From Myxococcota bacterium (GTDB lineage Bacteria; Myxococcota_A; UBA9042; PHBI01; JAWLBL01), in the NCBI GenBank assembly GCA_041687695.1, contig JAWLBL010000008.1, positions 32,074 through 96,073 on the forward strand: a stretch of DNA of 64,000 nucleotides, written 5' to 3'. Shown in pieces: positions 17,501 through 59,605 of this stretch. A model generated the notes under the pieces. It did no database searches. It was given only the letters and a program-made list of their open reading frames with translations, and had not been told where the DNA came from. The translations under genes and the position numbers were made by a program. Every line of letters starts with the position of its first letter. Position 1 is the first letter of the stretch.

Positions 17501-17647
17501 GACGCCCCCCAACACGCACGCGCACGCGTCTGCCCTTGAAAGCACAAGGGCGCCACCCTGAACGGATGGCGCCCGTAGCGCTCACTGCGGTAGTTGTCGG
17601 CTGCGTATCGGCCATTCGACAAACTGAGTCGCCTTGTTTCCAATCCG

Positions 17648-17720
17648 TGGGCCCACCTGGATTCGAACCAGGGACCAACCGGTTATGAGCCGGCGGCTCT
17701 CACCGCTGAGCTATAGGCCC
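17648..17720 (-). tRNA. tRNA with CAU anticodon; elongator-type with C4-G69/C5-G68, likely tRNA-Ile2 (lysidine, ileX-like) rather than tRNA-Met
   Basis: Minus strand GGGCCTATAGCTCAGCGGTGAGAGCCGCCGGCTCATAACCGGTTGGTCCCTGGTTCGAATCCAGGTGGGCCCA folds as cloverleaf (7-bp acceptor, TTCGAAT T-loop, anticodon loop CTCATAA); lies downstream of rpoD as ileX does in E. coli; CCA not encoded. Confidence 0.85.
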
Positions 17721-17924
17721 GTGCCTACAGGGTCGGGACCGTAACGCCATCGTTCGCGCCAAGTCAACAAGAGGTTGAGCCCCTCGCCGCCCTGCCACGA
17801 CGATGTCCGCCGCCGGCCTGTGCGGGCTGAAACCCACCCCCGGAGGCTTCATTCCCAGAGGCTCTCTGGGCGTCGGCGGCCCCGTCGGCCGGCTCCCGTC
17901 CGAGCCGCGATCTTCCCATCGAAG

Positions 17925-18440
17925 CGACGACGGCCAGAGCGCCTGGACGCTCCGGCCGCGCCGTGCCCGGGACCCCGGCGCCTCGGTGTCGATCCCGGAC
18001 CGACGACGGCCAGAGCGCGTGGACGCTCCGGCCGCGCCGTGCCCGGGCCCCCGGCGCCTCGCTGTCGATCCCGGAGCCGACGATGGCCAGAGCGCCTGGA
18101 CGCTCCGGCTGCCCCGTGCCCGGGGCCGCGGCGCCTGGGTGTCGATCCCGGAAACGACGACGGCCAGAGCGTCTGGACGCTCCGGCCGTGCCGTGCCCGG
18201 CGCCTCGGTGTCGATCCCGGAAACGACGACGGCCAGAGCGTCTGGACGCTCCGGCCGTGCCGTGCCCGGCGCCTCGGTGTCGATCCCGGAAACGACGACG
18301 GCCAGAGCGCGTGGACGCTCCGGCCGCGCCGTGCTCGGGCCCCGGTGCCTCGGTGTCGATCCCGGAAACGACGACGGCCAGAGCGCCTGGACGCTCCGGC
18401 CGTGCCGTGTCCGGGACTCCGGCGCCCGAGCGCCGAGCCC
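17925..18440. repeat. Tandem array of 7 near-identical 69-78 bp units, each with a strong GC hairpin (GGCCaGAGCGTCtgGACGCTCcGGCC), filling the rpoD-to-tRNA intergenic region
   Basis: Units begin at about 17925, 18001, 18079, 18157, 18226, 18295 and 18371: cgacgacggccagagcg(y)ctggacgctccggccg(y)gccgtgcccgg…cctcggtgtcgatcccggaaa. Variation is concentrated in the loop (tc/cc/cg) while stems are conserved. Array abuts the rpoD stop. Confidence 0.85.
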
Positions 18441-25978: not shown

Positions 25979-26680
25979 TCAGCCGCGCATCACGTACTCG
26001 ACCGCCAGCTCGACCTCTTCGACCATGGCGCCGTTGCCCTTGCCGTCGAGGCGGAAGCTGGTCCACTTCATCGGCCAGGCGTCGATGAATCGATAGGTCG
26101 ACACGTAGGTCTGCCCATCGTCGGCGATGAGGTGGATGGCGCCGGTCTTGCGCGAGACCGAGCCGTCCATCAGCTCCTTGCACCAGTCCCAGAGCTTGGA
26201 GTTGGGCGTGTAGCCCTTGGTCAGCTTGATCGACCCGAACTTCTTCATGCCCGGGCGCTTCTTCGGGTACGGGTCCATGCTGTCGCGCCACTCGATGAGG
26301 TCGAACTCGACCGAGAGGCCGTCGCACTTCTGGAAGCGCCCCGCGTTCAGGCCGTCGATCTCGAGGACGAAGTTGAAGTCGCCCCAATGGTCGTCGACGC
26401 GGTTGTGCTCGCCCTTGCGCTCGAGCGGCGTGATCGTGACGCCCGGCGACTCGTGTCCGTTGGTCCCGCCGCTGGTGGTCGCCAGGTTCGTCTTGGTCAC
26501 GCCGCCGTGGTAGACGCCCGCGGTCCCGCCGTTCGTCGGAGAGAGCGTCGTCTTGGTCACGCCGCCGTGGTACACGCCCGTCGTCGGGACGCCCTTGGGG
26601 GCGCTACCCTGCGTCGGGACGAGCTTCGTCGTCGTCACGGATCGGCCGACCACCTTGTTCCATTGATCGCTGAATCCCAT
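25979..26680 (-). CDS. Phage T4 gp19-like tail-tube family protein (eCIS/Afp tube-like) with N-terminal repeat extension, orphan
   Basis: AGGAG RBS 7 nt upstream of ATG; C-terminal ~140 aa (NFVLEIDGLNAGRFQKCDGLSVEFDLIEWRD…GAIHLIADDGQTYVSTYRFIDAWPMKWTSFRLDGKGNGAMVEEVELAVEYV) matches conserved phage tail-tube (TIGR02241/PF06841-like) pattern; N-terminus carries duplicated GVYHGGVTKT(T/N)L segment; no sheath, baseplate or spike genes nearby. Confidence 0.7.
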   Translation of the reverse strand: MGFSDQWNKVVGRSVTTTKLVPTQGSAPKGVPTTGVYHGGVTKTTLSPTNGGTAGVYHGGVTKTNLATTSGGTNGHESPGVTITPLERKGEHNRVDDHWGDFNFVLEIDGLNAGRFQKCDGLSVEFDLIEWRDSMDPYPKKRPGMKKFGSIKLTKGYTPNSKLWDWCKELMDGSVSRKTGAIHLIADDGQTYVSTYRFIDAWPMKWTSFRLDGKGNGAMVEEVELAVEYVMRG

Positions 26681-26791
26681 CGGGTCCTGCTCCTATCCCC
26701 TGGAGAGTGGTCGGACAGCGCGCACGGATGGGAGGATAGATCGGGCCAGTTCCAGGATGCAAGCGGTCCAACCTCGTTGTATCGTGCGCGC

Positions 26792-27862
26792 ATGGATCAC
26801 CCTGTCGACACTGACGAAATCCGTCTGACCACCCTGGTCACGACCGGCGGTTGAGCGGCCAAGCTGGGTCCGGCGGACCTGGCCCGCGTCCTCGAACGCC
26901 TCCCGGTCGCGACCGACCCCCGCGTGCTCGTGGGGTTCGGTCACAGCGACGACGCCGCGGTGTATCTCGCGGCGCCGGATCTGGCCGTGGTGCAGTCCAT
27001 CGACATCTTCGGGCCCGTCGTCGACGACCCGTTCGACTTCGGGCGCATCGCGGCCGCCAACGCGCTCAGCGACCTGTACGCCATGGGCGTCGAGCCGGCG
27101 TTCGCCCTGGCCTTCGTCGGCTTCCCGATGGGCGATCTGCCCGAGAGCGTGCTCGAGGCGATCCTCGCCGGCGGCGCCGAGGCGTGTCGGCAGGCCGGCG
27201 CGTCGATCATCGGCGGCCACTCCATCCGCGACAAGGAGCCCAAGTACGGCCTCGCCGTCACCGGCTTCGGGCGCCCCGACGCGATCGTCACCAACGCGGG
27301 CGGCCGCCCGGGCGACGCCCTGGTCCTCACCAAGCCCCTGGGCTCGGGCATCCTGACCACCGCGCTCAAGCGCCAGCTGCTCGGCCCCGACGCCGTCCGC
27401 GACGTCACCGAGCTGATGGCCACCCTCAACCGCGGCGCTTCGGCCGCCGCGCGCGCCGCCGGCGTCCACGCGATGACCGACGTGACCGGCTTCGGCCTGC
27501 TGGGCCACCTCGCCGAGCTGGCGCGCGCCTCGGGCGTCGCCGCCGAGGTGGACGCCGCCGCCGTGCCGCTGCTGCCCGGCGTCCTGACCTTCGCGGGCTC
27601 CGGCGTCGTGCCGGGGGGCAGCCGCCGCAACCTCACCGATCTGGGCCCGGCCGTCCGGTTCGACGACGCGGTGCCCGAGCCGCTGCGCCTCGCGCTCGGC
27701 GACGCCCAGACCTCGGGCGGGCTGCTCATCGCCGTCGCCCCCGAGCGCCTCCCCGCGCTGCTGGCCGGCCTGGGCCCGCCCCACTCCCCGGCCGCCGCCG
27801 TCATCGGCCGCCTCGTCGCGCGGGCGCACCCCGACACCGCGCCCCTCATCCACGTCCGCTAG
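26792..27862 (+). CDS. selD: Selenide, water dikinase (selenophosphate synthetase), selenocysteine-containing form with in-frame TGA at 26852..26854
   Basis: ORF track starts at 26924 (GTG), but reading the same frame upstream gives MDHPVDTDEIRLTTLVTTGG-[TGA]-AAKLGPADLARVLERL… which aligns with E. coli SelD [25 protein letters not shown]; the TGA sits exactly at the catalytic Cys/Sec position; rest of protein (DDAAVY…, GGHSIRDKEPKYGLAVTG, MTDVTGFGLLGH) is typical SelD. Confidence 0.85.
26857..26884 (+). other. Candidate SECIS-like stem-loop immediately 3' of the selD UGA
   Basis: GGCCAagctgGGTCCggcGGACCTGGCC forms outer 5-bp and inner 5-bp stems starting 3 nt after the TGA; no fold computed. 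Confidence 0.3.
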
Positions 27863-39589: not shown

Positions 39590-42500
39590 CTATTCGAACA
39601 TCTCCGAGTACTCGATCTGGATGCCCATGTACTGCCGCAGGCTCAGGTACTGGTCGCTCATCGCGTACATCACCAGATCCTTGAGCTTGTCGGCCTTCTT
39701 GAGCTTGGACGTGCCGGCGACCTCCTCGCGCAGCAGGTGCCCGGCCAGCTCGACGTCGTCACACACGAGCAGCGCCGCGTGGATGGCCGTCAGCTCGACC
39801 TGGCGATGCCACAGGCCGATGTGCGGCACCCGCCCGGACTGCTTCATCTCGGCGATGACCTGCGCGAGCTGCGTGCGGTTCTGCGGCGTGATGTCCTTGT
39901 CGAGCGCGGCGCGCGTCTCCCCGACCTGCTGCGCGATCTGCATCTTCAGCTCGTCGGGCATGTCCGCCTGCAGCTGCAGCTTGTAGCTCGGGTCGATGAG
40001 CGCCTCGGCCGCCATGAACATGATGTCGAGCTGCTCACGCTGGAACAGCGCCGCCATGATGTGCGTGTTGGTCAGGTACATCAGGCGCCGGGCGAGGTGG
40101 AACGCGAGGTCCTTTTCGCCCTTGCCCTGCAGCATGTCCGGCCCGATGGACAGGACCGGCGGCTGCGTGTCGAGGATCTCGATGCCCATGCGGGTCGAGC
40201 TGCGGTAGACCTCGGGCGGCTGCAGCCCGAGGATGCGGCAGACCGAGTTGATGACCGAGCAGATGAGCAGGCCCTCGCTCAGATCGATGCGGTCCTTCTT
40301 CTTGAGCCCGTGCTCCTTGAGCTGCTTGAGCGGCAGGCTCTTGTACAGGGACGCGTAGAGGATCGCGAAGACCTGCCCGAGGTACGGGTCCTCCTGCTGG
40401 CTGGCGACCAGCTGCGACATCGCCGTGGCGTCGACGATGCGGTTGGTCTCGGCCACCGCGGCCGACTGATGGTCGCGGTAGAACCGCTCCTCGTCCGGCT
40501 CGGCCCGGTTGAGCGCCACCAGCAGCCCGGCCATGACCCACGCCTTGTCGTAGGCCTTCATCCGCTTATAGAGCTCGACCAGCTTGTGGTAGCTGTCGAA
40601 GCGGTCCGGGTGCTGCCGGATGAGGTAGCGGTGCTCCTCGACGGCCTTGTCCAGCTGGTCCGGCGTCGACTCGTACAGCCCCGCCAGGATCTCGTGGATG
40701 GCCTCGTCGTCCGGCTTGATCTTCCGCGCCAGCTCGAACGCGCTGATGGCGTAGTCCGTGCGCTTGAGGCGCGAGCGGTAGATCTCGCCCAGGTTGCGGT
40801 AGAGCATGAAGTTCACCGCGCCGTACTTGGGCCAGCTGGCGCCCGCCTTCTGCACGCGCTGCAGCATGCGGCGGTAGTTCTGCTCGAGCGGCTTCCACTC
40901 CTTGGCGTGCGTCAGCAGCTCGTCGATGGCGCGGAACGCCTCGAGCTTCTCGATGTTGTAGTCCAGCGTCAGGTTCAAGTACTTGATGGCCGACTCGCGG
41001 TCACCGACCTCGTCGCGGTAGGTGACGGCCGCCGTGTAGGCCCAGGTGGACTTGCGCCCGGCGTCCTCCTCGATCTCGATGATCTTGTTGATCCACCGGA
41101 TCGCCTCGTCGAAGTTGCGCCGCTCGATGTGCACCTGCACCAGCTGCATCAGCGGCGCCTTCGAGAAGTTCCCGTAGCCGACGGCCTTCTGGTAGGCCTC
41201 GACGGCCTTGTCCGGCTGGCGCAGGTTGTCGCGGAAGATGTCGGCGATCTTCAGCTGGATGTTGAACTTCGCGAGCGGCTCGGACTTGAGCGCCAGCAGC
41301 TGCTGCATGTAGCTGATGGCCCCCGCCCAGTCGCCGTGCGCCTCGAGCACCTCGACGATGCGCTCGATGGCGCCCGCGTTGTTCGGCTGGTGCTGGATGA
41401 CCCGCGACAGGTACGTCTGCGCCACCGAGATGCGGCCCAGCTTCAGCGCGCTCTCGCCGAGGTTCAGGTACAGCAGGACGAAGTCCTCGTCGCTGAGCTC
41501 GGACCCGTAGGTGTCGATGACCTGCTGGTAGTAGCGCAGCGCCTCGGAGTAGTTCTGCTTCTTGAAGTGCAGCCGGGCGAGGCCCCGCAGCGTCTCCTTG
41601 TCGGGGCTCGCGTGCTCCACCGCGGCCGAGTACTCGTCGAGCGCGCGGTCGTCGTCGTAGACGGCCTCGGCGCACTGGCCCAGGCGCTTGTGCACCTGCG
41701 CCAGCCGCTCGCGGTCGCCGCGCGCGTCGAGCTTGTCGACCAGCACGTCGAGCAGCGGCATCGCCTTGGTCCAGTTCCGCGTCGCCATGTAGTGGTCGGC
41801 GAGCGGCCACAGCGTCTCCTCGGACTCCGGGTTGGCCTGGACCGACAGCTCGAGGTGCTCGAGGGCGCGGCCCTCGTCGTGCAGCTTGTCGCGGAACAGC
41901 GACGCCAGCTCGACGTGCACGTCGGCGCGCGCGACGTCGTCCTGCGCGTGCTGCAGCTTGTGCTCGAGGGTCTCGAGCACCAGATCGAAGCGCTCCTCGT
42001 AGCTGTACAGATCGATGAGCGCCTGCACCGGCTGCGGGTGTCCCGGCCACTCGGCCAGCGCCTGCTTGTAGTGCTCGGCCGCCCCGAAGGCGTCGTTCAG
42101 CTCGTCGCGCCGGACCGAGCCCTGCTCGCAGTGCAGCGCGAGCCGCTCCTCGTGGCCCGACTCCACCGCCAGCGTGCGGTCGAGCGTCCCGATGAGCTGC
42201 TCCCACAGCCCCTGCTCGCGGTACAGATCCCGCAGCGCGTCCAGCGCCGGCCGGTGCCCGGGCGCCTCGCTCAGCGCGCGCTCGTAGCTGCCGATGGCGC
42301 TGTCCAGATCGCCGATCTGGTCGCGGTAGACCGCCGCCATCGCCATCAGCGCCTGCGCCCGCTCCTCGGCGGTCTGCGCCACGCCGCGCTTCTTCTCGTA
42401 CAGGTCGACCAGATCGTCCCAGCGCGACGTCTCGGCGAAGATGCGCTCCAAGGCCTCGATGGCCTCGGCGTCGTCCGGCACGATGTACAGGATGCGCTGG

Positions 42501-45500
42501 AAGGCCTCGGCCGCCTGCTCGGCGTCCTTGAACACCTCCTGCTGCAGCAGGGCGATGTTGCGGCACGCCTCGACGCGCTGCTCGTCGTTGGTCGCCGCGC
42601 CGTAGCTGCGCTCGAAGACGTCGACCAGCTTCGCCCAGTCGTTGCGCTCGCCGTAGATGCCCTGCAGCGCCTCGATGGCCACCGCGTTGTTCGGGTCGAC
42701 CGCCAGGACATCCTCGTAGACGCCGATGGCCTCGTCGATCTCGCCCAGGTTGCCTTCGAGGATCTGCGCGACGCGCAGCTTCAGCTCGCTCTCGCGCTGC
42801 GGCTCGACCCGCGAGACCCGCTCGAGGACGTCGATGAGCGCGCGCCAGTCGCCGCGCTCGGTGTGCAGCCGCTCGAGCGCGCCGAGCGCCTCGCGGTTGC
42901 TCTCGTCGACCTCGCAGATGGCCTCGTACGCGCCGACGGCCCGCTCACGGTCGCCGATGTTGTGCTCGAAGACCTCGGCCGCGCTCGACAGCAGGACCAC
43001 CTTCTCCTGGTAGTCCATCGTCACGTAGCTGAGGCGCTGCAGCACGTCGACGAGCTTCTCGAACTGCTCCAGATCGATGTTCAGGTCGACCAGCGCGCGC
43101 AGCGCAGGCTCGCTGTCCTCGGCGTGCTCGAGCACGCGCTCGAAGTAGGCCGCGGCGCTCGCCGGGTCCTGCAGCTTGTCGCGCTGCACGTAGGCGGCCT
43201 TCAGCATCGCGTCGAGGGCCGCGTCCGGATCGAGGTGCTCGATGACCCGGTCGTAGATGGCCAGCATCTCGGGCCACAGGCCCGTCAGCTCGGCCAGCCG
43301 CGCCAGCTCGCTCAGGACGTGCGGCTCCTCGGGCGCCTCGTCGATGGCCGACTCGAGGACCATGAACGCCCCGTCGGCCTGGCCGAGCTTGTGCTCGTAG
43401 AGGCCGGCCAGCCGCTGGAGGTTCATCAGGCGATCTTCCATGTCGCCCAGATGCGCGTTGCGGCTCGTCAGCAGCTGCGCCAGATCCGCCCACTGCTCGA
43501 AGGCCTCGTAGATCGCCTCGAGCCGCTGGCTCGCCTCGACGTTGTCGGGGGCGTGCGTCAGGATCTCGACGTAGGTCCCGGCGGCGGCCGCCTGGTCCTG
43601 CAGGCGCTCCTCCTGGATGGACGCCATGTGCAGCCAGGTCTCGATCTGCTGCGCCGCGTCCTCGGTGTAGCCCAGCTTCACCCGGTACAGCTCGACCAGA
43701 TCCGCCCAGCGCTCCTCGGACTCGTACAGGTTCTCGAGGTTCTCGATGGCGTCGGGCGCCCCGGGGGCCAGCTCCAGCACCGCCCGCCACGCGTCGATGC
43801 CCGCGGGCCGGTCGCCCAGCGGCTCGGTCCGCAGCTCGGCCAGCTCGCGCCACAGCGCGACCTGCGCCTCGACGTCGTAGTGGCCGCTCTCGAGCCGCGC
43901 CTCGATGCACCCGGCCAGCGCCTCGTGCGCGTAGTTGTCGCGGTAGATGACGTGCAGCGCCTCGAGGGTCTCGGCGTCGAACGCGTCCTCGGCCCGCGCC
44001 TTCTCCCAGTACATCTGCGCCTGCAGCCCGTCCTCGAGCTGCTGCTGCCAGGTGCGGCCGATGCGCTTGAACAGATCCAGCCGCCGCGCGGCGTCGCCCT
44101 GGCCCATCGCCAGCTCGCGCTCGTACGCCTCGACCAGCCCGTTCCAGTCCTCCTGGCCCTCGCGCAGCCGCTGCAGCTGCTGGACGGCCTCGAAGCTCTG
44201 CGGCGTGACCGCGAGCACGTCCTCCCACAGGTTGATGGCGTCCTCGACCTTGCCGAGGCACACCTCGGCGATCTCGGCCATGTCCGCCATGTAGCCGGCG
44301 CGCTCGGCGTCGTCGCCCGTCGTCTCCGACAGCTGCTGGAGGATCTCGAACAGGGCGGGCCAGTTCTCGTCCTCGTGGTACATCGTGCGCAGCGCCTGCA
44401 GCGCCTCGCCGTGCGTGTCGTTGATGTCGAGCACGCGCTTCCAGGCGTCGATGGCGTCCTCGCGGCGCCCCAGGCGGTCGCGGTACAGCTCGGCGAGCCG
44501 CACCAGCAGCTTCATGCGCTCGTCGTCGAACTCGGCGACGTCGGCCTCGCGGGCCAGCACGCCCTCGAGATCCTCCCAGCGCTCGGCGGCGACGTAGATG
44601 CGGTCCAGCGCCTGCAGCGCCGGGAAGTTCTCGCCGTCCTGGCCCAGGATGAGCAGGTAGACGCGCTCGGCCTCGGCGATGTCACCCAGGCGATCGCGCG
44701 TGATGGCGGCCGCGCGGCCCCACAGCTCGACCCGGCGCTCGTCGTCCTGCACGGCGTCGGCGCCGTCCATCAGGATGACCTTCACCTCGTCCCAGCGGTC
44801 GGTCTCCTCGGCGAGCGTGCGCAGCTGGACCAGCAGGCCCTCGTCCTCGGGGTCGAGGCGGAAGGCGTGGCCGAACCAGGCGATGGCCTCGGGCTTGCTG
44901 CCCAGGCGCTCGAGGTTCAGCTCGGCCAGCTGCCGCATGATCTGCAGGCGGTCGAGCGGGTCCTCGAGGACCTCGAGCTTGAGCTCGAGCAGCCCGTGCA
45001 GCTCCTCCCAGGCCCCGCGGCCCGTGTAGATGGGCTCCAGGCGCTCGGCGATGTCCAGGCGGTGGACGCCCGCCACGTACAGGCGCTGCAGCTCGGCGAT
45101 CGCGTCCTCGGACTGCTCGTCGAGGTACAGGACCTCCATGTAGGCGTCGAAGGCCCCGTCGGTGTCCTCGAGGCAGGCCTCGCAGACCTGCGCGAGCTTG
45201 AAGAGGAAGCCCATCTTCTCGGCGGGCTCGGTCTGCGTCTCGATCTGCTGGCGCAGCACCTCGACCAGCGGCTCGTACTGGCCCTGGGCCTCGTACAGGG
45301 CGTGCAGCCGCGCCAGGACCTCCTGGTGATCCGGGTAGTCCTCGAAGATCTTCTTGTAGACGTCGGTCGCGCGCGCCGCGTCCTGGACGCGGTCCATCAG
45401 CAGCGCGCCGGTCTTGAGGCGCAGCCGCTGCGCGAGCAGCTCGTCGTCGGTGTCCTCGGCGCCGGCCGCGTACAGCGCGACCAGGGCCTCGATCATCTCG

Positions 45501-48500
45501 TGCTCGTCGGCCAGCCGCTCGAGCTCGGCCACCGTCGTCGGGTGCTGCCGGTCCAGCTCGAAGGCGCGCGCCTGCGCCTCGAAGGCCCGCGTCGCGTCGA
45601 ACAGGCGCTTTTCGGCCAGCTGCGCCATCTGGTGCAGCGTCTCGACCTTGCGGAACGGGTCGTCCGACTGGTGCGCCGCGATGATCTCGTACTGCTGCCA
45701 CAGCGGCTCGAAGGCGTTCATCTCGGCCAGGACCGGGCGCAGCACCTCGAAGGCGGCCTCGCGCTCGTCGCGGCTCTCGATGATGGCCTCGAGCGACGCG
45801 ATGGCGCCCTCGTGGCCGGGCACGCGGCCCAGCAGCTCGCCGTAGGCGGCGATGGCCTGGCGCGGATCGCCCAGGCGCTCGTCGTCCTCGAACAGCTTGG
45901 CGACGCGGAACTGCGCCTCGGCCCAGCCGGCCTCGTCGAGCAGCGCCTGCATCTTCTGCAGGACGTCCAGCAGGTTGAACCAGTCCTCCTGCCGCGTGTA
46001 CAGCCCGTCCAGCTCGTGCAGGGCGCCCAGCTCGGCCGGATCCCACTCGAGGATCATCCGCCAGGTCATGACGGCGTCGTCGAGGCTCTCCTGCTTGCCG
46101 GCCTGCACGTGGCCCATGAGCGACGCGTAGTACTTGCGCGTGTCGAGGTCGGCCGCCCGCTCGATCTTCTGGCGGTATACGCCGATGAGCTGCTCCCAGT
46201 CCTCGACCCGCTCGTACAGCCCCTCGAGGGCCTCGAGGGCCAGATCGCCCGTCGTGTCGAGGTTATGCAGCGTCTCGTAGATCTCGATGGCGCTCTCGGG
46301 CGCGTCGAGCACGGTCGCGCTCAGCTCGCCGGCCTCGGCGTACAGGGCCTGCTTGTCGGCCATGTCGCCGACCATCGGCGCCTTGACCAGCAGCATCTCG
46401 ACCAGCTTGTCCGAGCGCTCGAGCTGGCGGTACAGCGCGACGAGGGCCTCGATGGCCGGCATGTCGCCCGGATCGAGCTCGAGGATGGCGCGCAGGTGCG
46501 CCTCGGCGCCCTCGACGTCGTGCGTCGTGTCGCGGCACAGGCTGGCGATGGTGCGGTGCGTCTCTCGGCGCCGGTAGTCGTCGTCGATGTCGTCGACCAG
46601 CCCCTTGAGCGACAGCACCAGCTCGCCGTGGTTGCCCAGCACGTCGGCGAGGCGCAGCAGGTGCGACAGCGTCCCCTCGCTGGCCGGATCGAGCGCGGCG
46701 GCCGCCAGGTAGTGCTCGAAGGCGGCGTCGGGGCGCTCGCCCATCGCCTCGTACAGATCGGCGATCTTGTAGCGCCAGTCGACCTTCTCGAAGACGTCGT
46801 CCGAGGCGGCCTCGCGGACCGTGTAGACGTCGATGAGCTTCACCCAGTCGCCGACGCGGTCGTAGTAGGGCTGCAGGATGGGCGCGATGGCCGGGGCGTG
46901 CTCGGGCGCCTCGAACAGGCGCTCCAGGGCCTCGACCGTGCCCATGTGCTCGGGCTCGAGGGTCAGGTTCTCGGCGTAGAGCGAGATGGCCGTCGCCACG
47001 TCCTCGAGCACGGTCTCGTGCAGGCTGGCGAGGCGCGTCTGGTAGACCACGTGCCGCGGCACGTCGCCGCGGACCAGGTTGATGGCGTCCTCGAGGATCT
47101 GCGCCAGCTCGGTCCACTGCTCGGTCGCCGTGTACAGCTCGTCGAGCCGCAGCAGGGCGTCCATGTTGCCGGGGACCAGGTCCAGCGCCTCGCGCGCCGC
47201 GACCACGGCCTCGTCGTGCTTGCCAAGCCCGTCGCGCAGCAGATCGCTGGTCCGGAACAGGTACTGCAGCTTCTGCTCGACGTCCTGGCTCAGCTCGATC
47301 TTGCGGCGGTAGATGTCGAGCAGATCCTCGGAGCGGTCGAGCGCCGCGTAGATGCCCTCGAGCGCGTCGATGGCCTCCTTGTGCTCGGGCTCCTCGTCGA
47401 GGACCTTGTGGTAGAACTGCCGCGCGTGCTCGAGGTCCTGCTCGCGGCGGTGGTAGGCGCGCGCCACCTCGAGCTTGATCGCCAGGCGCGCCAGCGGGTC
47501 GCCCGCCTCCTCGGCGTGCTCGGCGTACAGCGCGATGAGGGCCGGCCAGCGCTCGAGCTGCGCGGTCAGGCGCTGGAACTCGCCGCGCACGTCGGCGCGG
47601 TGCGGCTCGTGGGCGAACCAGCGGCCGTAGGTGCGCCAGGCGAGATCCAGGTCGTCCAGCGAGCTCTTGTACAGATCGGCCAGGCGCTCGAGCAGCGAGA
47701 CCTGCTCGTAGACGTCCTCGTCGGCCGCCGCGGCCAGCAGCTGGATCTCGAAGACCTCGGCCAGGCGCGCCCACTCGGCGCGGTCGCGGTAGACCGGCTC
47801 GAGGATGCGGGTGATGCGCAGGCGCTCGTCCTCGTCGGCGAGCAGCTCTTCCAGGCGCGCGACCGACTCGAGGTGCTGCGCGTCGTGACGCAGCGCCGCC
47901 TCGTAGTGATCGACCGCGACGCGCACGCCCTCGGCGTCGGGCTGCACGCCGTAGGCCAGCATGCCCAGCTCGCACTCGAGGTCGGCCAGGACCACGGCGT
48001 GCGCGCCCTGGGCGGCCAGGATGTCGCGCTTGCGCTCGAGGACCTCGCGCAGCGGCGCCCACCGCTGCTGCTCGAGCTGGATGGCGATGAGCGCGTCGTG
48101 GACCCGCGTCTCGTCCGGGAAGTCGTCCAGCATCTCCCGGTAGATGGCCTCGGCCTCCTCGGCCTGCCCCAGCGCCTCGCGCCAGACCGCCGCCAGCTGG
48201 AACAGCGTCTCCTTGCGCTCGTCGCCGCCCTGCGCGATGCGCAGCTGCTTGTCGTAGACGACGATCAGCTGGTCCCACGCGCCCAGGTCCCGGTACAGCC
48301 CCTCGAGCGCGGCCAGCGCGGCCCGGTTGCCGTCGTCGAGCTCGACGACGCGGTTGAAGAAGGTCAGCGCCGTCTCGGCGAGGCCCACGTGGTCGCGGTA
48401 GACGTGGCCGATCTCCAGCAGGACGCCGACCTTGTGGCCCTCGTCCTCGATGAGGTCGACCGTCTCCTGCAGGACCATCACGTAGCTGTCCCAGTTGCCC

Positions 48501-50410
48501 GACGCCTCGGCGAGGCGGCGCAGCTCGGGGTGCAGCGACACGGCGTTCGGCGACTCCTGGACCGCCTGCACGTAGGCGAAGAAGGCCGAGTCGACGTCCG
48601 AGAGGTGCTGCTCCTGGACCTCGGCCAGCGCGAGCAGGAGCTGCTGGCGCTCGGCGCGGTCCTCGGTCGCCTCGAGCACGATGTCGTAGACGTTGGGCAG
48701 CTCGGCCCACGACCCGACCTCGCGGTAGATCGGCACCATCATGCGCGCGGCGCCCGCGTGGCGCGGCTCGATCTCGAGCACGGACTCGAGGTTCTTGACG
48801 GCGCGGCGCGTGTCGCCCAGCTCGTCTTGCCACACCGCCGCCGCCTTGAAGAGCAGCGTCGTCGTCTCGGCCGGATCCTCGAGGCTCTTGGCCTGCGACT
48901 CGAGCGTGCGGACCCAGTCCTGCGCCGAGGCGTAGGTCCGGAAGAACCACTCGAGGTTGTCCCAGTCGCGCTCGGCCGTGTACTTCTTCTTGAGTTCGGC
49001 CTGCGCCTTGCGGTGCTCGGCGTCGAGCTCGAGCACGCGGCGCCAGACCTCGGCGGCGCGCGCGTCGTCCTCGAGGCGCGACGAGTAGACCTGGCCCAGC
49101 TTCTCGAGCAGCGCCACCTTGTCGGGGGCGAAGTCGCTCAGCTCGGCGCGGCGGTCGAGGATGCGGGCGAGGTCCTCGAAGCTCTTCTCGCGCTCGTAGA
49201 GCGTCTCGAGCTCACCCAGGGCCTCGGCGTGGTCGGGGTCGATGGTGAGGACCCGCTCCCACAGCGCGATGGGCGTCTGCGGCTTGCGGATGCGCTCGGA
49301 GGCCAGCTTGGCCAGCTTGATGTAGGCCGCGTCGCGATCGGCGCCCTCGGGCAGCAGGCCGACCTCGCGCTCGGCGACGACGATGTAGCTGTCCCAGTCG
49401 TGCCGGCTCTCGTAGATCTCTTTGAGGACGTCGATGCCCTTGCGGTTGGTCGGATCGATCTCGAGGATGGCCTCGTAGCTCTTGATGGCCTCGCTCGAGT
49501 TGTTGAACTTGTCGAGCATGATGGTGGCGACGCGCTCGTGCAGCGCGATCACCTGCGCCGTTTCGGCCTCGTGCTCGATCTTCTGCTTGAGCACCTTGAC
49601 CAGATCCGGCCACCGCTTCATCTCGTCGTACTCGGCGGCGAGCGCGTCGAGCGCCTGCGTGTTGCCGGGCTCGAGCTCGAGGATCGCCTGCCAGGACCCG
49701 ACCACCTTCGACGCCGCGTTGAGGTGCGTCTTGAAGATGTCGATCATCTCGAGGTGCAGCGCGATGGCCTCGCTCACCTGATCCGCGCCGAGGCGGCCCA
49801 GGTTGTTCTTGAGCAGATCCACCATCGCGTGCCACTTGCCGACCTCGGCGAACAGGCGCCGCAGCGCGCCCTCGGCCTCGAGATCGTTCGGGTCCGCGGT
49901 GTACACGGCCTGCCAGAAGCCGACCGCCTTGTCCGGCTTGCCCCGCTCCTCGGCGAGGCGGGCGAGGACGCGCTTGCACTCGACCGGGTCCTCGATGCCG
50001 CCCATCTGCGGCTCGCTCAGGAACTGCTCGAGGCGCCGCCAGTTGTCCTGCTCGACGTAGAAGTCGATGTAGAACTCGCGCAGCAGCGACGGATCGCTGG
50101 GCGCGCTCTTCATCTTGCGGAACATCATCTCGGCCTTCTGGGCCGAGTCGAACGCCTTCCACAGCAGCAGGCCGTTCTGGTAGTGCAGGTAGGACGCGAC
50201 GTCGTCGTCCTTGGCCGTGCGCGCCTGCTGCGCCAGGATCTGGAACAGGCGGCTGGCCTCGCCCTCGGGCGCCCACTCGGGCAGCGAGGCGTAGAGGCTC
50301 CCCAGGGTGCCCTGGTCGTTCTCCGTGACCAGGTGTTTCACCAACGCTTCGAAAGCCTTGTGATCCGTAGGGTTGGCTTTGAAGGCTTCGAAGAGCTCGG
50401 TAGTGCTCAT
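39590..50410 (-). CDS. Giant tetratricopeptide-repeat protein (3606 aa; ~85 degenerate 38-40-aa TPR-like repeats plus a ~400-aa non-repeat C-terminal domain)
   Basis: Uninterrupted 10.8-kb ORF with diverse, protein-like composition and high GC3; recurring pattern A…W.RVLE.DP.N.EAL..L..LY……W..L; the co-located plus-strand 3597-aa ORF is the R/L/V/G-rich antisense shadow. Confidence 0.85.
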   Translation of the reverse strand: MSTTELFEAFKANPTDHKAFEALVKHLVTENDQGTLGSLYASLPEWAPEGEASRLFQILAQQARTAKDDDVASYLHYQNGLLLWKAFDSAQKAEMMFRKMKSAPSDPSLLREFYIDFYVEQDNWRRLEQFLSEPQMGGIEDPVECKRVLARLAEERGKPDKAVGFWQAVYTADPNDLEAEGALRRLFAEVGKWHAMVDLLKNNLGRLGADQVSEAIALHLEMIDIFKTHLNAASKVVGSWQAILELEPGNTQALDALAAEYDEMKRWPDLVKVLKQKIEHEAETAQVIALHERVATIMLDKFNNSSEAIKSYEAILEIDPTNRKGIDVLKEIYESRHDWDSYIVVAEREVGLLPEGADRDAAYIKLAKLASERIRKPQTPIALWERVLTIDPDHAEALGELETLYEREKSFEDLARILDRRAELSDFAPDKVALLEKLGQVYSSRLEDDARAAEVWRRVLELDAEHRKAQAELKKKYTAERDWDNLEWFFRTYASAQDWVRTLESQAKSLEDPAETTTLLFKAAAVWQDELGDTRRAVKNLESVLEIEPRHAGAARMMVPIYREVGSWAELPNVYDIVLEATEDRAERQQLLLALAEVQEQHLSDVDSAFFAYVQAVQESPNAVSLHPELRRLAEASGNWDSYVMVLQETVDLIEDEGHKVGVLLEIGHVYRDHVGLAETALTFFNRVVELDDGNRAALAALEGLYRDLGAWDQLIVVYDKQLRIAQGGDERKETLFQLAAVWREALGQAEEAEAIYREMLDDFPDETRVHDALIAIQLEQQRWAPLREVLERKRDILAAQGAHAVVLADLECELGMLAYGVQPDAEGVRVAVDHYEAALRHDAQHLESVARLEELLADEDERLRITRILEPVYRDRAEWARLAEVFEIQLLAAAADEDVYEQVSLLERLADLYKSSLDDLDLAWRTYGRWFAHEPHRADVRGEFQRLTAQLERWPALIALYAEHAEEAGDPLARLAIKLEVARAYHRREQDLEHARQFYHKVLDEEPEHKEAIDALEGIYAALDRSEDLLDIYRRKIELSQDVEQKLQYLFRTSDLLRDGLGKHDEAVVAAREALDLVPGNMDALLRLDELYTATEQWTELAQILEDAINLVRGDVPRHVVYQTRLASLHETVLEDVATAISLYAENLTLEPEHMGTVEALERLFEAPEHAPAIAPILQPYYDRVGDWVKLIDVYTVREAASDDVFEKVDWRYKIADLYEAMGERPDAAFEHYLAAAALDPASEGTLSHLLRLADVLGNHGELVLSLKGLVDDIDDDYRRRETHRTIASLCRDTTHDVEGAEAHLRAILELDPGDMPAIEALVALYRQLERSDKLVEMLLVKAPMVGDMADKQALYAEAGELSATVLDAPESAIEIYETLHNLDTTGDLALEALEGLYERVEDWEQLIGVYRQKIERAADLDTRKYYASLMGHVQAGKQESLDDAVMTWRMILEWDPAELGALHELDGLYTRQEDWFNLLDVLQKMQALLDEAGWAEAQFRVAKLFEDDERLGDPRQAIAAYGELLGRVPGHEGAIASLEAIIESRDEREAAFEVLRPVLAEMNAFEPLWQQYEIIAAHQSDDPFRKVETLHQMAQLAEKRLFDATRAFEAQARAFELDRQHPTTVAELERLADEHEMIEALVALYAAGAEDTDDELLAQRLRLKTGALLMDRVQDAARATDVYKKIFEDYPDHQEVLARLHALYEAQGQYEPLVEVLRQQIETQTEPAEKMGFLFKLAQVCEACLEDTDGAFDAYMEVLYLDEQSEDAIAELQRLYVAGVHRLDIAERLEPIYTGRGAWEELHGLLELKLEVLEDPLDRLQIMRQLAELNLERLGSKPEAIAWFGHAFRLDPEDEGLLVQLRTLAEETDRWDEVKVILMDGADAVQDDERRVELWGRAAAITRDRLGDIAEAERVYLLILGQDGENFPALQALDRIYVAAERWEDLEGVLAREADVAEFDDERMKLLVRLAELYRDRLGRREDAIDAWKRVLDINDTHGEALQALRTMYHEDENWPALFEILQQLSETTGDDAERAGYMADMAEIAEVCLGKVEDAINLWEDVLAVTPQSFEAVQQLQRLREGQEDWNGLVEAYERELAMGQGDAARRLDLFKRIGRTWQQQLEDGLQAQMYWEKARAEDAFDAETLEALHVIYRDNYAHEALAGCIEARLESGHYDVEAQVALWRELAELRTEPLGDRPAGIDAWRAVLELAPGAPDAIENLENLYESEERWADLVELYRVKLGYTEDAAQQIETWLHMASIQEERLQDQAAAAGTYVEILTHAPDNVEASQRLEAIYEAFEQWADLAQLLTSRNAHLGDMEDRLMNLQRLAGLYEHKLGQADGAFMVLESAIDEAPEEPHVLSELARLAELTGLWPEMLAIYDRVIEHLDPDAALDAMLKAAYVQRDKLQDPASAAAYFERVLEHAEDSEPALRALVDLNIDLEQFEKLVDVLQRLSYVTMDYQEKVVLLSSAAEVFEHNIGDRERAVGAYEAICEVDESNREALGALERLHTERGDWRALIDVLERVSRVEPQRESELKLRVAQILEGNLGEIDEAIGVYEDVLAVDPNNAVAIEALQGIYGERNDWAKLVDVFERSYGAATNDEQRVEACRNIALLQQEVFKDAEQAAEAFQRILYIVPDDAEAIEALERIFAETSRWDDLVDLYEKKRGVAQTAEERAQALMAMAAVYRDQIGDLDSAIGSYERALSEAPGHRPALDALRDLYREQGLWEQLIGTLDRTLAVESGHEERLALHCEQGSVRRDELNDAFGAAEHYKQALAEWPGHPQPVQALIDLYSYEERFDLVLETLEHKLQHAQDDVARADVHVELASLFRDKLHDEGRALEHLELSVQANPESEETLWPLADHYMATRNWTKAMPLLDVLVDKLDARGDRERLAQVHKRLGQCAEAVYDDDRALDEYSAAVEHASPDKETLRGLARLHFKKQNYSEALRYYQQVIDTYGSELSDEDFVLLYLNLGESALKLGRISVAQTYLSRVIQHQPNNAGAIERIVEVLEAHGDWAGAISYMQQLLALKSEPLAKFNIQLKIADIFRDNLRQPDKAVEAYQKAVGYGNFSKAPLMQLVQVHIERRNFDEAIRWINKIIEIEEDAGRKSTWAYTAAVTYRDEVGDRESAIKYLNLTLDYNIEKLEAFRAIDELLTHAKEWKPLEQNYRRMLQRVQKAGASWPKYGAVNFMLYRNLGEIYRSRLKRTDYAISAFELARKIKPDDEAIHEILAGLYESTPDQLDKAVEEHRYLIRQHPDRFDSYHKLVELYKRMKAYDKAWVMAGLLVALNRAEPDEERFYRDHQSAAVAETNRIVDATAMSQLVASQQEDPYLGQVFAILYASLYKSLPLKQLKEHGLKKKDRIDLSEGLLICSVINSVCRILGLQPPEVYRSSTRMGIEILDTQPPVLSIGPDMLQGKGEKDLAFHLARRLMYLTNTHIMAALFQREQLDIMFMAAEALIDPSYKLQLQADMPDELKMQIAQQVGETRAALDKDITPQNRTQLAQVIAEMKQSGRVPHIGLWHRQVELTAIHAALLVCDDVELAGHLLREEVAGTSKLKKADKLKDLVMYAMSDQYLSLRQYMGIQIEYSEMFE

Positions 50411-50512
50411 GTATCCCCTCGACGACCCGCGATGCGACGAACGACCCGAGACTGGTCAGCCCGGAAGGTCGCTAAGTCACTCGGAAAAGCGGCCCTTCCG
50501 GGGGCAGTCCGG

Positions 50513-55767: not shown

Positions 55768-57567
55768 TCAGCGACGGCCCAGGGCGACGCGGCCGATGAA
55801 GCTGCGGACGTAGGCCAGTTGGCTCGAGGCGAGGTGCTTGACCGCCGTGAGGCGTCCGGCCTCGGCCGTCAGGCGACCCAGCGTGCCCTCGGCGTACAGC
55901 TCGGCGGCCTTGCGCCGCTGCAGCTTGCCCGAGCTGGTCTTCGGCAGGCCGCCCGGCGGCAGGACGACGATGTCCGCCACCTTCAGGCCCATCCCCTCGC
56001 TCACCGCCGCGCGCACGCTCTGCGCGACCTCCTCGTGGTCGGCGTCCTTGCGCGCCTCGAGGACCAGCACCAGCTCCTCGGTGTCGCCGCGCGCGGCGCC
56101 GAAGGCGATGGCGTTGCCGGTGCGCACCCCGGGCAGCTCCCAGACCAGGTGCTCGATGTCCTGCGGGTAGTAGTTCTTGCCGCCGATGATGATGAGCTCC
56201 TTTTTGCGCCCGCAGACGTAGACCTCGCCATCGGCGATGTAGCCAAGGTCGCCCGTGTGCAGCCAGCCGCCCCGCAGGACCTGGGCCGTGGCTTCGGCGT
56301 TGTCGAAGTAGCCCGGCATGATGCTGGGGCCGCGCACCACGATCTCGCCCACGGCGCGCTCGCCCAGCTGGCGCCCGGCGTCGTCGACCACGGCGATGGC
56401 GTGCTTGGAGAAGGGCTTGCCGCAGCTGACGATGCGCTGCGCTTCGCCGTCGGGCAGGGGCCGCGCCGCCTCGTGGCGGTGCACCAGCGCCTGCGCGTCG
56501 ACCAGATCGGTGCGCATCCCGGTGCCCGGGTCGGCGAAGCTGACCGCCAGCGTCGCCTCGGCCATGCCGTACGACGGGAACAGGCTGCTCGCCGAGAAGC
56601 CGGCGGGGCCGAAGCGGTCCACGAAGGCCTCGAGGGTGTCGGGGCGGATGGGCTCGGCGCCGCAGCCGGCGATGCGCCAGCTCGACAGATCCAGGCGGGC
56701 CAGCTGCTCGTCGCGCACACGCCGGGTGCACAGGCCGTAGGCGAAGTTCGGCGCGTAGGTGATGGTGCCCTTGTGACGGCTGATGGCCTCGAGCCACAGG
56801 TGCGGGCGCTTCAGGAAGGTCAGCGGCGCCATGCTGACCATGCGGACCTGATAGAAGAAGGGGGTCAGCACGAAGCCGATGAGCCCCATGTCGTGGTACA
56901 GCGGCAACCACGACACGCCGCAGTCGTCCGGGCCGACGCTCAGCGCCTCGCCGCCGATGCAGCGGCTGTTCTCGGCGAGGCCCCCGTGGGTGACCATCAC
57001 GCCCTTGGGGCGCGAGGTGGAGCCCGAGGTGAACTGGATGAAGCACAGGTCCTCGGGCGCGACCTCGGCCATCGGCGCCTCGGGGCCCGGGCCGGTCAGC
57101 GCGTCGACGACGGCGACCTCGCGCAGATCGGGGCACTGCACGAGCAGGCTGCCGAGCACCTTGTGGACCGTCTTGTCGGTGACGACGCCCTTGGCGCGGG
57201 CGGCGCGGACGATGTGGACCGCGTTGTCCAGGTAGCCGCCCAGCTTGCCGAGGCCCAGCGGGGGGTAGATGGGCACCGGGACCACGCCGGTCCAGATGGC
57301 GCCCAGGAACACCGACAGGAAGTCCTCGGTCTCGGGCAGCACCACGACCAGCCGGTCACCTTTGCGGTAACCGCGTTGCCCCAGCTGGTGGGCCACGCGG
57401 CGGGCGCGCCGGACCAGCTCCGCATAGGGCACCATGCGCTCGCCGCCGGCTTCGTCGATGAACGTGTATCCGTGGGACTCGACCGCGCCGGCCGCGGCGA
57501 TGGCCGCGCTGAGGGTCGGGTGGGGGGGCTCGCAGGCGGGGGCGGGGCCCTCTAGGATGACCGCCAT
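55768..57567 (-). CDS. Fatty acyl-AMP ligase-like adenylate-forming enzyme (candidate acyl-ACP synthetase)
   Basis: 599 aa; AMP-binding motifs FTSGSTSRPKGVMVTH, YGMAEA, GWLHTGDLG, and FAAL-type N-terminus; near the ACP and AOS genes. Confidence 0.85.
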   Translation of the reverse strand: MAVILEGPAPACEPPHPTLSAAIAAAGAVESHGYTFIDEAGGERMVPYAELVRRARRVAHQLGQRGYRKGDRLVVVLPETEDFLSVFLGAIWTGVVPVPIYPPLGLGKLGGYLDNAVHIVRAARAKGVVTDKTVHKVLGSLLVQCPDLREVAVVDALTGPGPEAPMAEVAPEDLCFIQFTSGSTSRPKGVMVTHGGLAENSRCIGGEALSVGPDDCGVSWLPLYHDMGLIGFVLTPFFYQVRMVSMAPLTFLKRPHLWLEAISRHKGTITYAPNFAYGLCTRRVRDEQLARLDLSSWRIAGCGAEPIRPDTLEAFVDRFGPAGFSASSLFPSYGMAEATLAVSFADPGTGMRTDLVDAQALVHRHEAARPLPDGEAQRIVSCGKPFSKHAIAVVDDAGRQLGERAVGEIVVRGPSIMPGYFDNAEATAQVLRGGWLHTGDLGYIADGEVYVCGRKKELIIIGGKNYYPQDIEHLVWELPGVRTGNAIAFGAARGDTEELVLVLEARKDADHEEVAQSVRAAVSEGMGLKVADIVVLPPGGLPKTSSGKLQRRKAAELYAEGTLGRLTAEAGRLTAVKHLASSQLAYVRSFIGRVALGRR

Positions 57568-57802
57568 GGCTGGGCGCCTCCGTACCGAGCAAGCGCTCGG
57601 AAAGTCAATGATTTCAAGGTTGAACGGAAGTGGCGCGGAAGCTACCCGCCCCCCCGGTGGGTGTCAAACCGAAACCACGATGGGCGCGGCGGCCGCGTCG
57701 CGGCGGGTTTCGCCAAAACGAAACGGGCGCCAGCGGCCCGGAGCCGCGCCCCCAGTGGCCGCGATGGCCCTCCAGACGCCCTGCCGGCTGGGCCGCGGGC
57801 CA

Positions 57803-57831
57803 TTGACCCCGCCGCCCGCGCCGCCTATAAG
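57803..57831 (+). promoter_or_regulatory. Sigma70-like promoter for the OmpA-TSP3 gene (-35 TTGACC, 17 nt, -10 TATAAG)
   Basis: cattgaccccgccgcccgcgccgccTATAAGcgc about 65 nt upstream of ATG 57895. Confidence 0.4.
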
Positions 57832-57894
57832 CGCCCGGTTGCAACGAGGCGGATGGCCGCGGCGCGTCGCGAGCCACCCTGCGCGGAGTGCGTG

Positions 57895-59154: not shown

Positions 59155-59264
59155 CGTTCGAGCCTGCGGTGGCCCGCGGCGGCGCGCTCGGAGATGCCTC
59201 CGGCGCGCCGCTCGCGCATCCGGGCCCGGCCGCCAGGACCGAACGCCCGTTCTGGAAAACCCCT

Positions 59265-59293
59265 TTGACATCGCGGGCCCGGCGCCCTATGCC
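59265..59293 (+). promoter_or_regulatory. Candidate sigma70-like promoter for ACP-AOS operon (-35 TTGACA, 17 nt, -10 TATGCC)
   Basis: cctTTGACAtcgcgggcccggcgcccTATGCCggt about 65 nt upstream of ACP ATG. Confidence 0.35.
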
Positions 59294-59595: not shown

Positions 59596-59605
59596 GGATC
59601 GGGCG

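What the first reader, a model, noticed from the sequence alone, without database searches (positions are those of the whole stretch)
26792..27862. selD is a selenoprotein here: in-frame TGA at the catalytic Cys/Sec position, split by the ORF track
Reading upstream of the annotated GTG at 26924 in the same frame gives IRLTTLVTTGG-TGA-AAKLGPADLARVLERL from an ATG at 26792. This aligns residue-for-residue with E. coli SelD around its catalytic Cys17 ([25 protein letters not shown]), so the TGA most plausibly encodes selenocysteine. That implies a complete Sec-incorporation system (selA, selB, tRNA-Sec) elsewhere in the genome, and naive ORF calling truncates the gene. A stem-loop follows the TGA.
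Basis: partly seen in the sequence, partly recalled or inferred. Interest (0 to 1): 0.55.

Follow-up and report, generated by a model that had tools for sequence, protein, structure and literature searches.

The report
Selenocysteine-containing selD, truncated by gene callers
In this uncultured myxobacterium, the gene for the selenium-activating enzyme SelD most likely encodes selenocysteine through a UGA at its own catalytic site, a common and well-documented arrangement that automatic gene callers miss, so the finding is correct but ordinary.

Summary
An ATG at 26792 opens a frame that runs through an in-frame TGA (26852-26854) into the ORF called from GTG 26924, ending at TAG 27862. The 356-residue read-through product is a full-length SelD (TIGR00476, 378 bits, matched from profile position 1). 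The TGA aligns with catalytic Cys17 of E. coli SelD and with the natural Sec position of Aquifex SelD.

The TGA is not an error or a recent nonsense mutation:
- Two separate assemblies carry it.
- A syntenic Myxococcota orthologue (61% identical) keeps the TGA and the upstream peptide, with 5 synonymous changes, plus an identical 21-nt hairpin.
- The gene sits in an all-TGA clade.
- 22 of 80 other SelD loci have TGA at the same codon.

The hairpin at 26863-26883 meets all four published bacterial SECIS criteria. 18 of 24 TGA-type loci meet them, against 6 of 58 Cys-type loci.

Not shown: selA, selB and tRNA-Sec are absent from about 84 kb inspected, and the rest of the genome could not be reached. 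Sec-type selD loci are generally solitary, so this absence says little.

Sec-containing SelD is a textbook case, about 19% of prokaryotic SelD genes. This is a new member of a known kind, and interest is low.

The parts
26792..27862 (+). Full-length selD coding sequence: 356 codons including Sec21, plus the TAG stop
   Evidence: Translation. TIGR00476 378 bits (cutoff 125) and NF002098 359 bits (cutoff 299), matched from profile positions 1 and 3. Aligns with E. coli SelD 3u0o over residues 8-321.
26792..26851 (+). N-terminal 20 codons upstream of the UGA (MDHPVDTDEIRLTTLVTTGG), missing from the database gene call
   Evidence: Matches the SelD N-terminal motif RLT....G.G. In the syntenic orthologue L083, 10 of the 11 residues before the UGA are identical, with 5 synonymous and 1 conservative change, which indicates purifying selection on a translated peptide.
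26852..26854 (+). In-frame UGA, inferred selenocysteine codon (Sec21), homologous to E. coli Cys17
   Evidence: The same codon is TGA in 22 of 80 other SelD loci and TGC/TGT in the other 58. It is present in both near-identical assemblies and in the syntenic orthologue.
26863..26883 (+). Candidate bacterial SECIS upper stem-loop: 9-bp stem, GGC apical loop at 26872-26874, 17 nt between the UGA and the loop
   Evidence: Present in the MFE fold. The hairpin scores -13.1 kcal/mol and meets all four published bSECIS criteria; only 3.2% of 1046 TGA triplets in the window do as well. It is identical in orthologue L083 and lies inside the longest identical nucleotide run of the gene (27 nt; 9-codon run, permutation p=0.016). 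It contains a rare GGU Gly codon (3.5% of Gly codons) whose U pairs with an A.
26924..27862 (+). The truncated ORF as called in public data (312 aa, P0001); an annotation artefact lacking the catalytic loop
   Evidence: Its GTG start is not conserved: the orthologue is called from a different position, 48 nt after the TGA.

Best explanation
This is a selD gene (selenide, water dikinase, also called selenophosphate synthetase) of an uncultured Myxococcota bacterium, and its catalytic residue is selenocysteine. Translation starts at ATG 26792 (inferred). At UGA 26852 the ribosome does not terminate. Instead the hairpin at 26863-26883, lying inside the coding sequence, acts as a bacterial SECIS element. 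[quoted passage not shown] There, together with Lys24, it handles selenide for ATP-dependent selenophosphate synthesis. The enzyme therefore needs its own product for its own synthesis. Shown here: the frame, the homology, the position of the UGA, its conservation, purifying selection on both sides, and a hairpin that satisfies the published SECIS model. Inferred: actual Sec insertion, SelB binding, the start codon, and the presence of selA/selB/selC elsewhere in the genome.
For: (1) The read-through product is a full-length SelD. TIGR00476 scores 378 bits and NF002098 359 bits, both above their curated cutoffs and matched from the first profile positions.
(2) The UGA aligns with Cys17 of E. 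coli SelD (3u0o) and Lys24 with Lys20. The motif VTTGG-U-AAKLGPADL closely matches VRSSG-C-AAKVGPGDL of the Aquifex aeolicus SelD structure 2yye; that this Aquifex enzyme is naturally a selenoprotein crystallised as a Cys variant is my own knowledge. The DDAAVY, SIDIF, NALSDLYAMG and MTDVTGFGLLGH motifs are conserved.
(3) The syntenic orthologue L082-84 has the same gene order (CT398, RpoD, DnaG, SCP2, PriA, gp19, SelD, Ig-like protein). At 61% protein identity it keeps the TGA, the upstream peptide (10 of 11 identical with 5 synonymous changes) and an identical hairpin.
(4) In an NJ tree the window's SelD lies in an all-TGA clade of 6, and all 25 TGA-type sequences fall in one half of the tree.
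(5) The hairpin meets all four published bSECIS criteria from PMC13188914: loop of 3-9 nt, stem of 4-16 bp, G in the first two loop positions, spacing of 16-37 nt, and energy of -7.5 kcal/mol or lower. 18 of 24 TGA-type loci meet the criteria against 6 of 58 Cys-type loci, Fisher p=1.7e-8 at similar GC.
(6) TGA is an ordinary stop codon here: 16 of 23 high-confidence ORFs end in TGA. Recoding is therefore site-specific.
(7) Two assemblies differing at 31 of 19,790 bases both carry the TGA.
(8) Literature: 19% of prokaryotic SelD genes encode Sec, always at this position (PMC4561486). SelD and FdhA are the most widespread bacterial selenoproteins, and the myxobacterium Anaeromyxobacter has a Sec-SelD (PMC1794560).
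Against: No tRNA-Sec, selA or selB was found in the window or in 10-kb extensions on both sides, about 84 kb in all. No second selenoprotein gene candidate was found in the window. Taken alone, the window's hairpin is not clearly better than background in this 72-78% GC sequence: z=-0.22 against dinucleotide shuffles and p=0.11 against synonymous recodings. No Rfam family matched the region at E<=10. No clear Shine-Dalgarno sequence precedes ATG 26792 (sequence). No experimental evidence of Sec insertion exists.
Confidence: 0.88

Rival explanations
1. The TGA is a true stop. The gene is a decaying pseudogene, or it is expressed only as an N-terminally truncated SelD from GTG 26924 or another internal start, for example in a lineage that has lost the Sec machinery.
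For: No Sec machinery was found in about 84 kb. Public gene calls start downstream of the TGA. TGA is the commonest stop codon in this genome.
Against: The 11 codons before the TGA are under purifying selection relative to a 61%-identical orthologue that keeps the same TGA. The stretch between the TGA and the called start is conserved as protein, and the called starts differ between orthologues. A product starting at 26924 would lack the catalytic Sec/Cys-Lys loop. The motif is the Sec-type G-U-A-x-K, not the Cys-type G-C-G-C-K expected if a Cys codon had recently mutated. The rest of the gene is intact, with GC3 of 0.97.
Confidence: 0.07
2. The TGA is a sequencing or assembly error for TGC or TGT, and this is an ordinary Cys-type SelD.
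For: A single base change would suffice, and MAG assemblies do contain errors.
Against: Two separate assemblies (99.8% identical, 31 mismatches in 19.8 kb) both have TGA. The syntenic orthologue, assembled in three ENA samples, has it too. The nearest relatives are all TGA-type. The flanking motif and the downstream hairpin are of the Sec type.
Confidence: 0.01
3. The UGA is read through without selenocysteine, either by a reassigned genetic code, by near-cognate suppression, or by Cys insertion through the Sec pathway when selenium is scarce.
For: Stem-loops next to UGA can promote Sec-independent read-through in some SPS genes; the insect SPS1-UGA case is discussed in PMC4561486.
Against: TGA terminates 16 of 23 high-confidence ORFs here, so the code is not reassigned. 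No other in-frame TGA candidates exist in the window. In prokaryotic SelD the homologous residue is always Sec or Cys (PMC4561486). The hairpin fits the SelB-dependent bSECIS model.
Confidence: 0.03

Closest known systems
Sec-containing bacterial SelD, e.g. Aquifex aeolicus SelD (PDB 2ZOD/2YYE, crystallised as a Cys variant) and the Sec-SelD genes catalogued by Zhang et al. 2006 (PMC1794560) and Mariotti et al. 2015 (PMC4561486)
   Same: Same family and same position of the UGA. The local motif is nearly the same (G-U-A-A-K-[LV]-G-P-x-D-L), and a stem-loop lies within the coding sequence just 3' of the UGA.
   Different: Only about 45-61% identical to any sequence retrieved here. The host is an uncultured Myxococcota lineage. 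The exact hairpin sequence and its register (17-nt spacing) are shared by a few lineages only (L083, L031, L032). Many other Sec-SelD genes place a hairpin at a spacing of 20 or 32-33 nt.
E. coli SelD (Cys17 form; PDB 3U0O)
   Same: Aligns over residues 8-321 (E=2.7e-79). The catalytic Lys and the ATP/metal-binding motifs are conserved.
   Different: E. coli uses Cys (TGC) in a G-C-G-C-K motif and needs no recoding. The window has UGA in G-U-A-A-K.
Bacterial SECIS consensus model (bSECISearch model, summarised in PMC13188914)
   Same: Apical loop of 3 nt starting with GG, 9-bp upper stem, 17-nt spacing, -13.1 kcal/mol. All four criteria are met.
   Different: SelB binding is untested. The loop lacks the GU dinucleotide and the stem lacks the bulged U of the E. 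coli fdhF element (my own knowledge). The element is not represented in Rfam.
Eukaryotic SEPHS2/SPS2
   Same: A selenophosphate synthetase that is itself a selenoprotein at the homologous position (PMC4561486).
   Different: The eukaryotic SECIS is a kink-turn element in the 3' UTR read by SBP2. Here the element is a simple hairpin inside the coding sequence.

Membership tests
SelD / selenide, water dikinase (TIGR00476, NF002098) | Whole-protein score above the curated equivalog cutoff, over the full profile length | tested here: met
   TIGR00476 scores 378 bits against a cutoff of 125, profile positions 1-309 of 311. NF002098 scores 359 bits against 299, positions 3-338 of 347.
SelD / selenide, water dikinase (TIGR00476, NF002098) | Gly-rich N-terminal loop with catalytic Sec/Cys and a Lys three residues later (E. 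coli Cys17 and Lys20) | tested here: met
   GG-U21-A-A-K24 aligns with G-C17-G-C-K20 of 3u0o. The role of these residues is from my own knowledge of the SelD literature.
SelD / selenide, water dikinase (TIGR00476, NF002098) | AIRS and AIRS_C (PurM-like) domains with conserved Asp/Asn nucleotide- and metal-binding motifs | tested here: met
   PF00586 and PF02769 are recorded on P0001. The motifs DDAAVY, SIDIF, NALSDLYAMG and MTDVTGFGLLGH are conserved against 3u0o.
SelD / selenide, water dikinase (TIGR00476, NF002098) | Selenophosphate synthetase activity | not testable with these tools
   Requires an enzyme assay.
Bacterial selenoprotein gene (UGA-Sec recoding) | In-frame UGA at a position occupied by Cys or Sec in homologues | tested here: met
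   The homologous codon is TGA in 22 and TGC/TGT in 58 of 80 SelD loci, and no other codon was seen.
Bacterial selenoprotein gene (UGA-Sec recoding) | Protein-level conservation on both sides of the UGA | tested here: met
   Against syntenic orthologue L083, 10 of 11 residues upstream are identical with 5 synonymous changes, and the downstream sequence is conserved throughout (61% overall).
Bacterial selenoprotein gene (UGA-Sec recoding) | bSECIS stem-loop: 3-9 nt loop, 4-16 bp stem, G in the first two loop positions, 16-37 nt from the UGA, energy of -7.5 kcal/mol or lower | tested here: met
   Loop GGC, 9 bp, spacing 17, -13.1 kcal/mol (criteria from PMC13188914). Specificity is limited: 18.6% of all TGAs in this GC-rich window pass the minimal criteria and 3.2% match the observed stability. 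The class-level contrast is 18/24 against 6/58.
Bacterial selenoprotein gene (UGA-Sec recoding) | tRNA-Sec (selC), SelA and SelB encoded in the same genome | not testable with these tools
   None was found in about 84 kb of the contig. The rest of GCA_041690335.1 could not be fetched.
Bacterial selenoprotein gene (UGA-Sec recoding) | Selenium incorporated at the UGA position | not testable with these tools
   Requires 75Se labelling or mass spectrometry.

The most novel reading that the evidence does not exclude
The genome might lack selA, selB and tRNA-Sec. In that case a Sec-type selD would be kept under purifying selection, with a conserved hairpin, in a lineage that cannot insert Sec, which would imply SelB-independent read-through of the UGA or a function for the split product. 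A milder version is that SelD is the only selenoprotein of this lineage, so the whole Sec apparatus is kept solely to make the enzyme that feeds it. The evidence here excludes neither, because only about 84 kb of the genome could be inspected.
Probability: 0.04. Interest if true: 0.6.

Novelty: new member of a known kind. Interest (0 to 1): 0.15.

Why it matters
The value is mainly for annotation. The public gene call for this protein is a 312-aa fragment without its catalytic loop, and many related SelD entries are similarly short (316-326 aa). Pipelines would therefore score the enzyme as incomplete and miss that this Myxococcota lineage is very probably a selenocysteine user. Correcting the call flags the genome for a search for tRNA-Sec, SelA, SelB and further selenoproteins. 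It adds no new biology, because Sec-containing SelD and its in-frame SECIS have been known for decades and have been surveyed across thousands of genomes.

Tried and rejected
1. Rfam: the gathering search on the whole window found only RNase P RNA and tRNA-Met. A permissive search (E<=10) on 26700-27000 found nothing.
2. Single-sequence significance of the hairpin: z=-0.22 against dinucleotide shuffles and p=0.11 against synonymous recodings. These were not convincing alone, so I moved to comparative tests.
3. One covariance model or common pair set for SelD SECIS elements: dropped, because hairpins sit in different registers in different lineages (spacings of 17, 20 and 32-33 nt). No single consensus structure would be meaningful.
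4. Organism name: cluster look-ups gave no names, and literature searches for the accessions found nothing. Taxonomy was inferred from ValRS hits instead.
5. Reaching the rest of the genome: the window's genome was not among the returned genome-contig hits. Contig walking with edge genes gained only 10 kb on each side and found no sel genes. Two look-ups failed because the guessed products are not on record.
6. Third homologue search with SelA or SelB: not run. No Myxococcota query was available, and only 120 hits are listed, so this genome's copy would almost certainly not appear.
7. Scan for other in-frame TGA selenoprotein candidates: the only hit, at 7676 on the minus strand, is the antisense shadow of a plus-strand gene.
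8. tRNA-Sec next to selD in TGA-type relatives: none found.

Full report
**1. The observation**

The window sequence shows ATG at 26792 followed by 20 sense codons (MDHPVDTDEIRLTTLVTTGG). TGA follows at 26852-26854, and the frame then stays open (AAKLGPADLARVLERLPVATDPR-VLVG...). It passes through the GTG at 26924 that mechanical ORF calling takes as the start, and ends at TAG 27860-27862. The only public record of this protein is the 312-aa GTG ORF (P0001, NCBI assembly GCA_041690335.1, contig JAWLHM010000004.1). The statement that ORF calling truncates the gene is therefore also correct.

**2. What the gene is**

With Cys substituted for the stop, the 356-residue product scores 378 bits on the SelD equivalog TIGR00476 (cutoff 125) and 359 bits on NF002098 (cutoff 299). 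Both matches start at the first profile positions, so the 20 upstream codons are part of the family signature.

Against solved structures, residues 8-321 align with E. coli SelD 3u0o (E=2.7e-79). The TGA falls on Cys17 and Lys24 on Lys20. The nucleotide- and metal-binding motifs (DDAAVY, SIDIF, NALSDLYAMG, MTDVTGFGLLGH) are conserved.

The local motif VTTGG-U-AAKLGPADL is nearly the same as VRSSG-C-AAKVGPGDL in the Aquifex aeolicus SelD structure 2yye. From my own knowledge, that enzyme is naturally a selenoprotein crystallised as a Cys variant.

**3. Organism and context**

The window is 72% GC. Its ValRS is 70-74% identical to ValRS of Myxococcota and "Deltaproteobacteria" MAGs, so the source is an uncultured Myxococcota bacterium.

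selD is solitary. It lies divergent from a lone T4-gp19-like tail-tube gene and upstream of a secreted Ig/PKD-like protein. The surrounding genes are housekeeping: ValRS, RNase P RNA, tRNA-Met, RpoD, DnaG and PriA.

TGA is the normal stop codon here, ending 16 of 23 high-confidence ORFs. Any decoding of the selD TGA must therefore be site-specific. No other in-frame TGA candidate exists in the window.

**4. Is the TGA real and old?**

- The window and the GCA_041690335.1 contig are separate assemblies (31 mismatches in 19,790 aligned bases, plus indels in a repeat array). Both carry the TGA.
- Three ENA contigs (L082-84) hold a syntenic locus with the same gene order (CT398-like, RpoD, DnaG, SCP2, an unannotated gene, PriA, gp19, SelD, Ig-like protein). 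Their selD is 61% identical to the window's and was also called truncated, at 317 aa.
- That orthologue has TGA at the same codon. Of the 11 residues before it, 10 are identical, with five synonymous and one conservative difference. This is the signature of a translated peptide under purifying selection.
- Its called start lies 48 nt after the TGA, against 72 nt in the window. There is thus no conserved internal start.
- Among 80 SelD loci from reference genomes, 22 have TGA and 58 have TGC or TGT at this codon.
- In a neighbour-joining tree the window groups with the syntenic orthologue inside an all-TGA clade of six. All TGA-type sequences fall in one half of the tree.
- The motif is G-U-A-x-K as in other Sec forms, not the G-C-G-C-K of most Cys forms.

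Sequencing error and recent nonsense mutation are therefore very unlikely.

**5. The RNA element**

Eight nucleotides after the UGA lies a perfect 9-bp hairpin, GCUGGGUCC-GGC-GGACCUGGC (26863-26883). It is part of the MFE fold.

The published bacterial SECIS model has four criteria (PMC13188914, Fig. 2 legend):
- an apical loop of 3-9 nt with an upper stem of 4-16 bp;
- a G in the first two loop positions;
- 16-37 nt between the UGA and the loop;
- an energy of -7.5 kcal/mol or lower.

The hairpin meets all four: loop GGC, 9 bp, spacing 17, -13.1 kcal/mol.

Specificity in this GC-rich DNA is limited. Of all 1046 TGA triplets in the window, 18.6% pass the minimal criteria and 3.2% match the observed stability. 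On its own the sequence is not distinguishable from dinucleotide shuffles (z=-0.22) or from synonymous recodings (p=0.11).

The comparative evidence is stronger.
- The hairpin is identical in the 61%-identical orthologue.
- It lies within the longest run of identical nucleotides in the whole gene alignment (27 nt; nine identical codons, permutation p=0.016).
- It contains a GGU glycine codon, which makes up 3.5% of Gly codons in seven window genes. The U of that codon pairs with an A.
- Across the family, 18 of 24 TGA-type loci have a criteria-satisfying hairpin, against 6 of 58 Cys-type loci at similar GC (Fisher p=1.7e-8). An MFE-based comparison agrees (p=0.001).
- The hairpins differ in sequence and register between lineages (spacings of 17, 20 and 32-33 nt). 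This is expected for bSECIS elements, and it is why I did not build a single covariance model.

**6. What could not be shown**

No tRNA-Sec, selA, selB or selU lies in the window. None lies in the 10 kb beyond either edge, which I reached by looking up edge genes.

The absence nearby is uninformative. None of 22 other Sec-type selD loci has selA, selB or selU within its flanks, whereas 34 of 58 Cys-type loci do (p=3.5e-7). These counts rest on motif detection, and the loci are not phylogenetically independent.

**7. Mechanism**

The best-supported account is standard bacterial Sec recoding. [quoted passage not shown] This gives a full-length SelD whose Sec21 and Lys24 loop carries out selenophosphate synthesis.

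- Shown: the frame, the homology, the conservation, and the fit of the hairpin to the model.
- Inferred: Sec insertion itself, SelB binding, the start codon (no clear Shine-Dalgarno sequence; a TTG at 26777 is an alternative), and the presence of the machinery elsewhere in the genome.

**8. Comparison with what is known**

Sec-containing SelD is long established.
- In a survey of prokaryotic genomes, 19% of SelD genes encode Sec, always at this position, and all others encode Cys (PMC4561486).
- SelD and FdhA are the two most widespread bacterial selenoprotein families, and at least one of them occurs in every selenoprotein-containing bacterium surveyed.
- The myxobacterium Anaeromyxobacter dehalogenans is listed with a Sec-SelD (PMC1794560).

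**9. Verdict**

It is an ordinary new member of a well-known class, so its value is as an annotation correction. Confidence in the Sec reading is 0.88 and interest is 0.15.

Noticed in passing
window 17921-18426: Tandem array of a 76-nt unit, 6.8 copies, 88% matches. It lies between tRNA-Met (17647-17720, minus strand) and the 3' end of rpoD. The two near-identical assemblies appear to differ in the length of this array, and the syntenic relative L083 has no such array, with only about 100 nt between the two genes. The whole unit repeats with no spacers, so it is not CRISPR-like. Function unknown.
   Followed up: partly
L001-L080 (selD loci from reference genomes): None of 22 Sec-type selD loci has selA, selB or selU within roughly 10 kb, whereas 34 of 58 Cys-type loci do (15 with selA/selB, 19 with selU; Fisher p=3.5e-7). 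Sec-type selD genes appear to be systematically solitary. The counts rest on motif detection and the loci are not phylogenetically independent.
   Followed up: partly
L003, L004, L014, L023, L038, L052, L077, L085 and others, about 29-50 nt after the UGA: Many Sec-type selD genes have a second conserved hairpin, GCGCAGGUnCUGCGC, which encodes A-Q-V-L-R. It sits 32-33 nt from the UGA and has a GGU-type loop. The window and its orthologue lack this hairpin and have only the proximal one at a spacing of 17 nt. Which hairpin binds SelB in those lineages is unclear.
   Followed up: no
window 25979-26680 (minus strand): A solitary T4 gp19-like tail-tube protein gene (PF06841, E=7.6e-31) lies divergent from selD with no other contractile-tail genes nearby. 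The same position is conserved in the syntenic relative L082-84.
   Followed up: no
window 39590-50455 (minus strand): A single 3621-codon ORF with GC3 of 0.98, made almost entirely of TPR repeats.
   Followed up: no
window 55768-60967: A gene set of a fatty-acyl-AMP-ligase-like AMP-binding enzyme, an OmpA-family protein, an acyl carrier protein and a class I/II aminotransferase (AONS or serine-palmitoyltransferase-like), next to a TetR regulator and a patatin-like lipase. It looks like an aminolipid or sphingolipid-type biosynthetic module.
   Followed up: no
one search hit list (SelD homologues): Many of the best SelD hits are 316-326 aa long and cover only 86-88% of the query. This suggests that Sec-type SelD genes are truncated at the UGA on a large scale in public protein collections. 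The TGA was confirmed directly for P0048 and P0049.
   Followed up: partly
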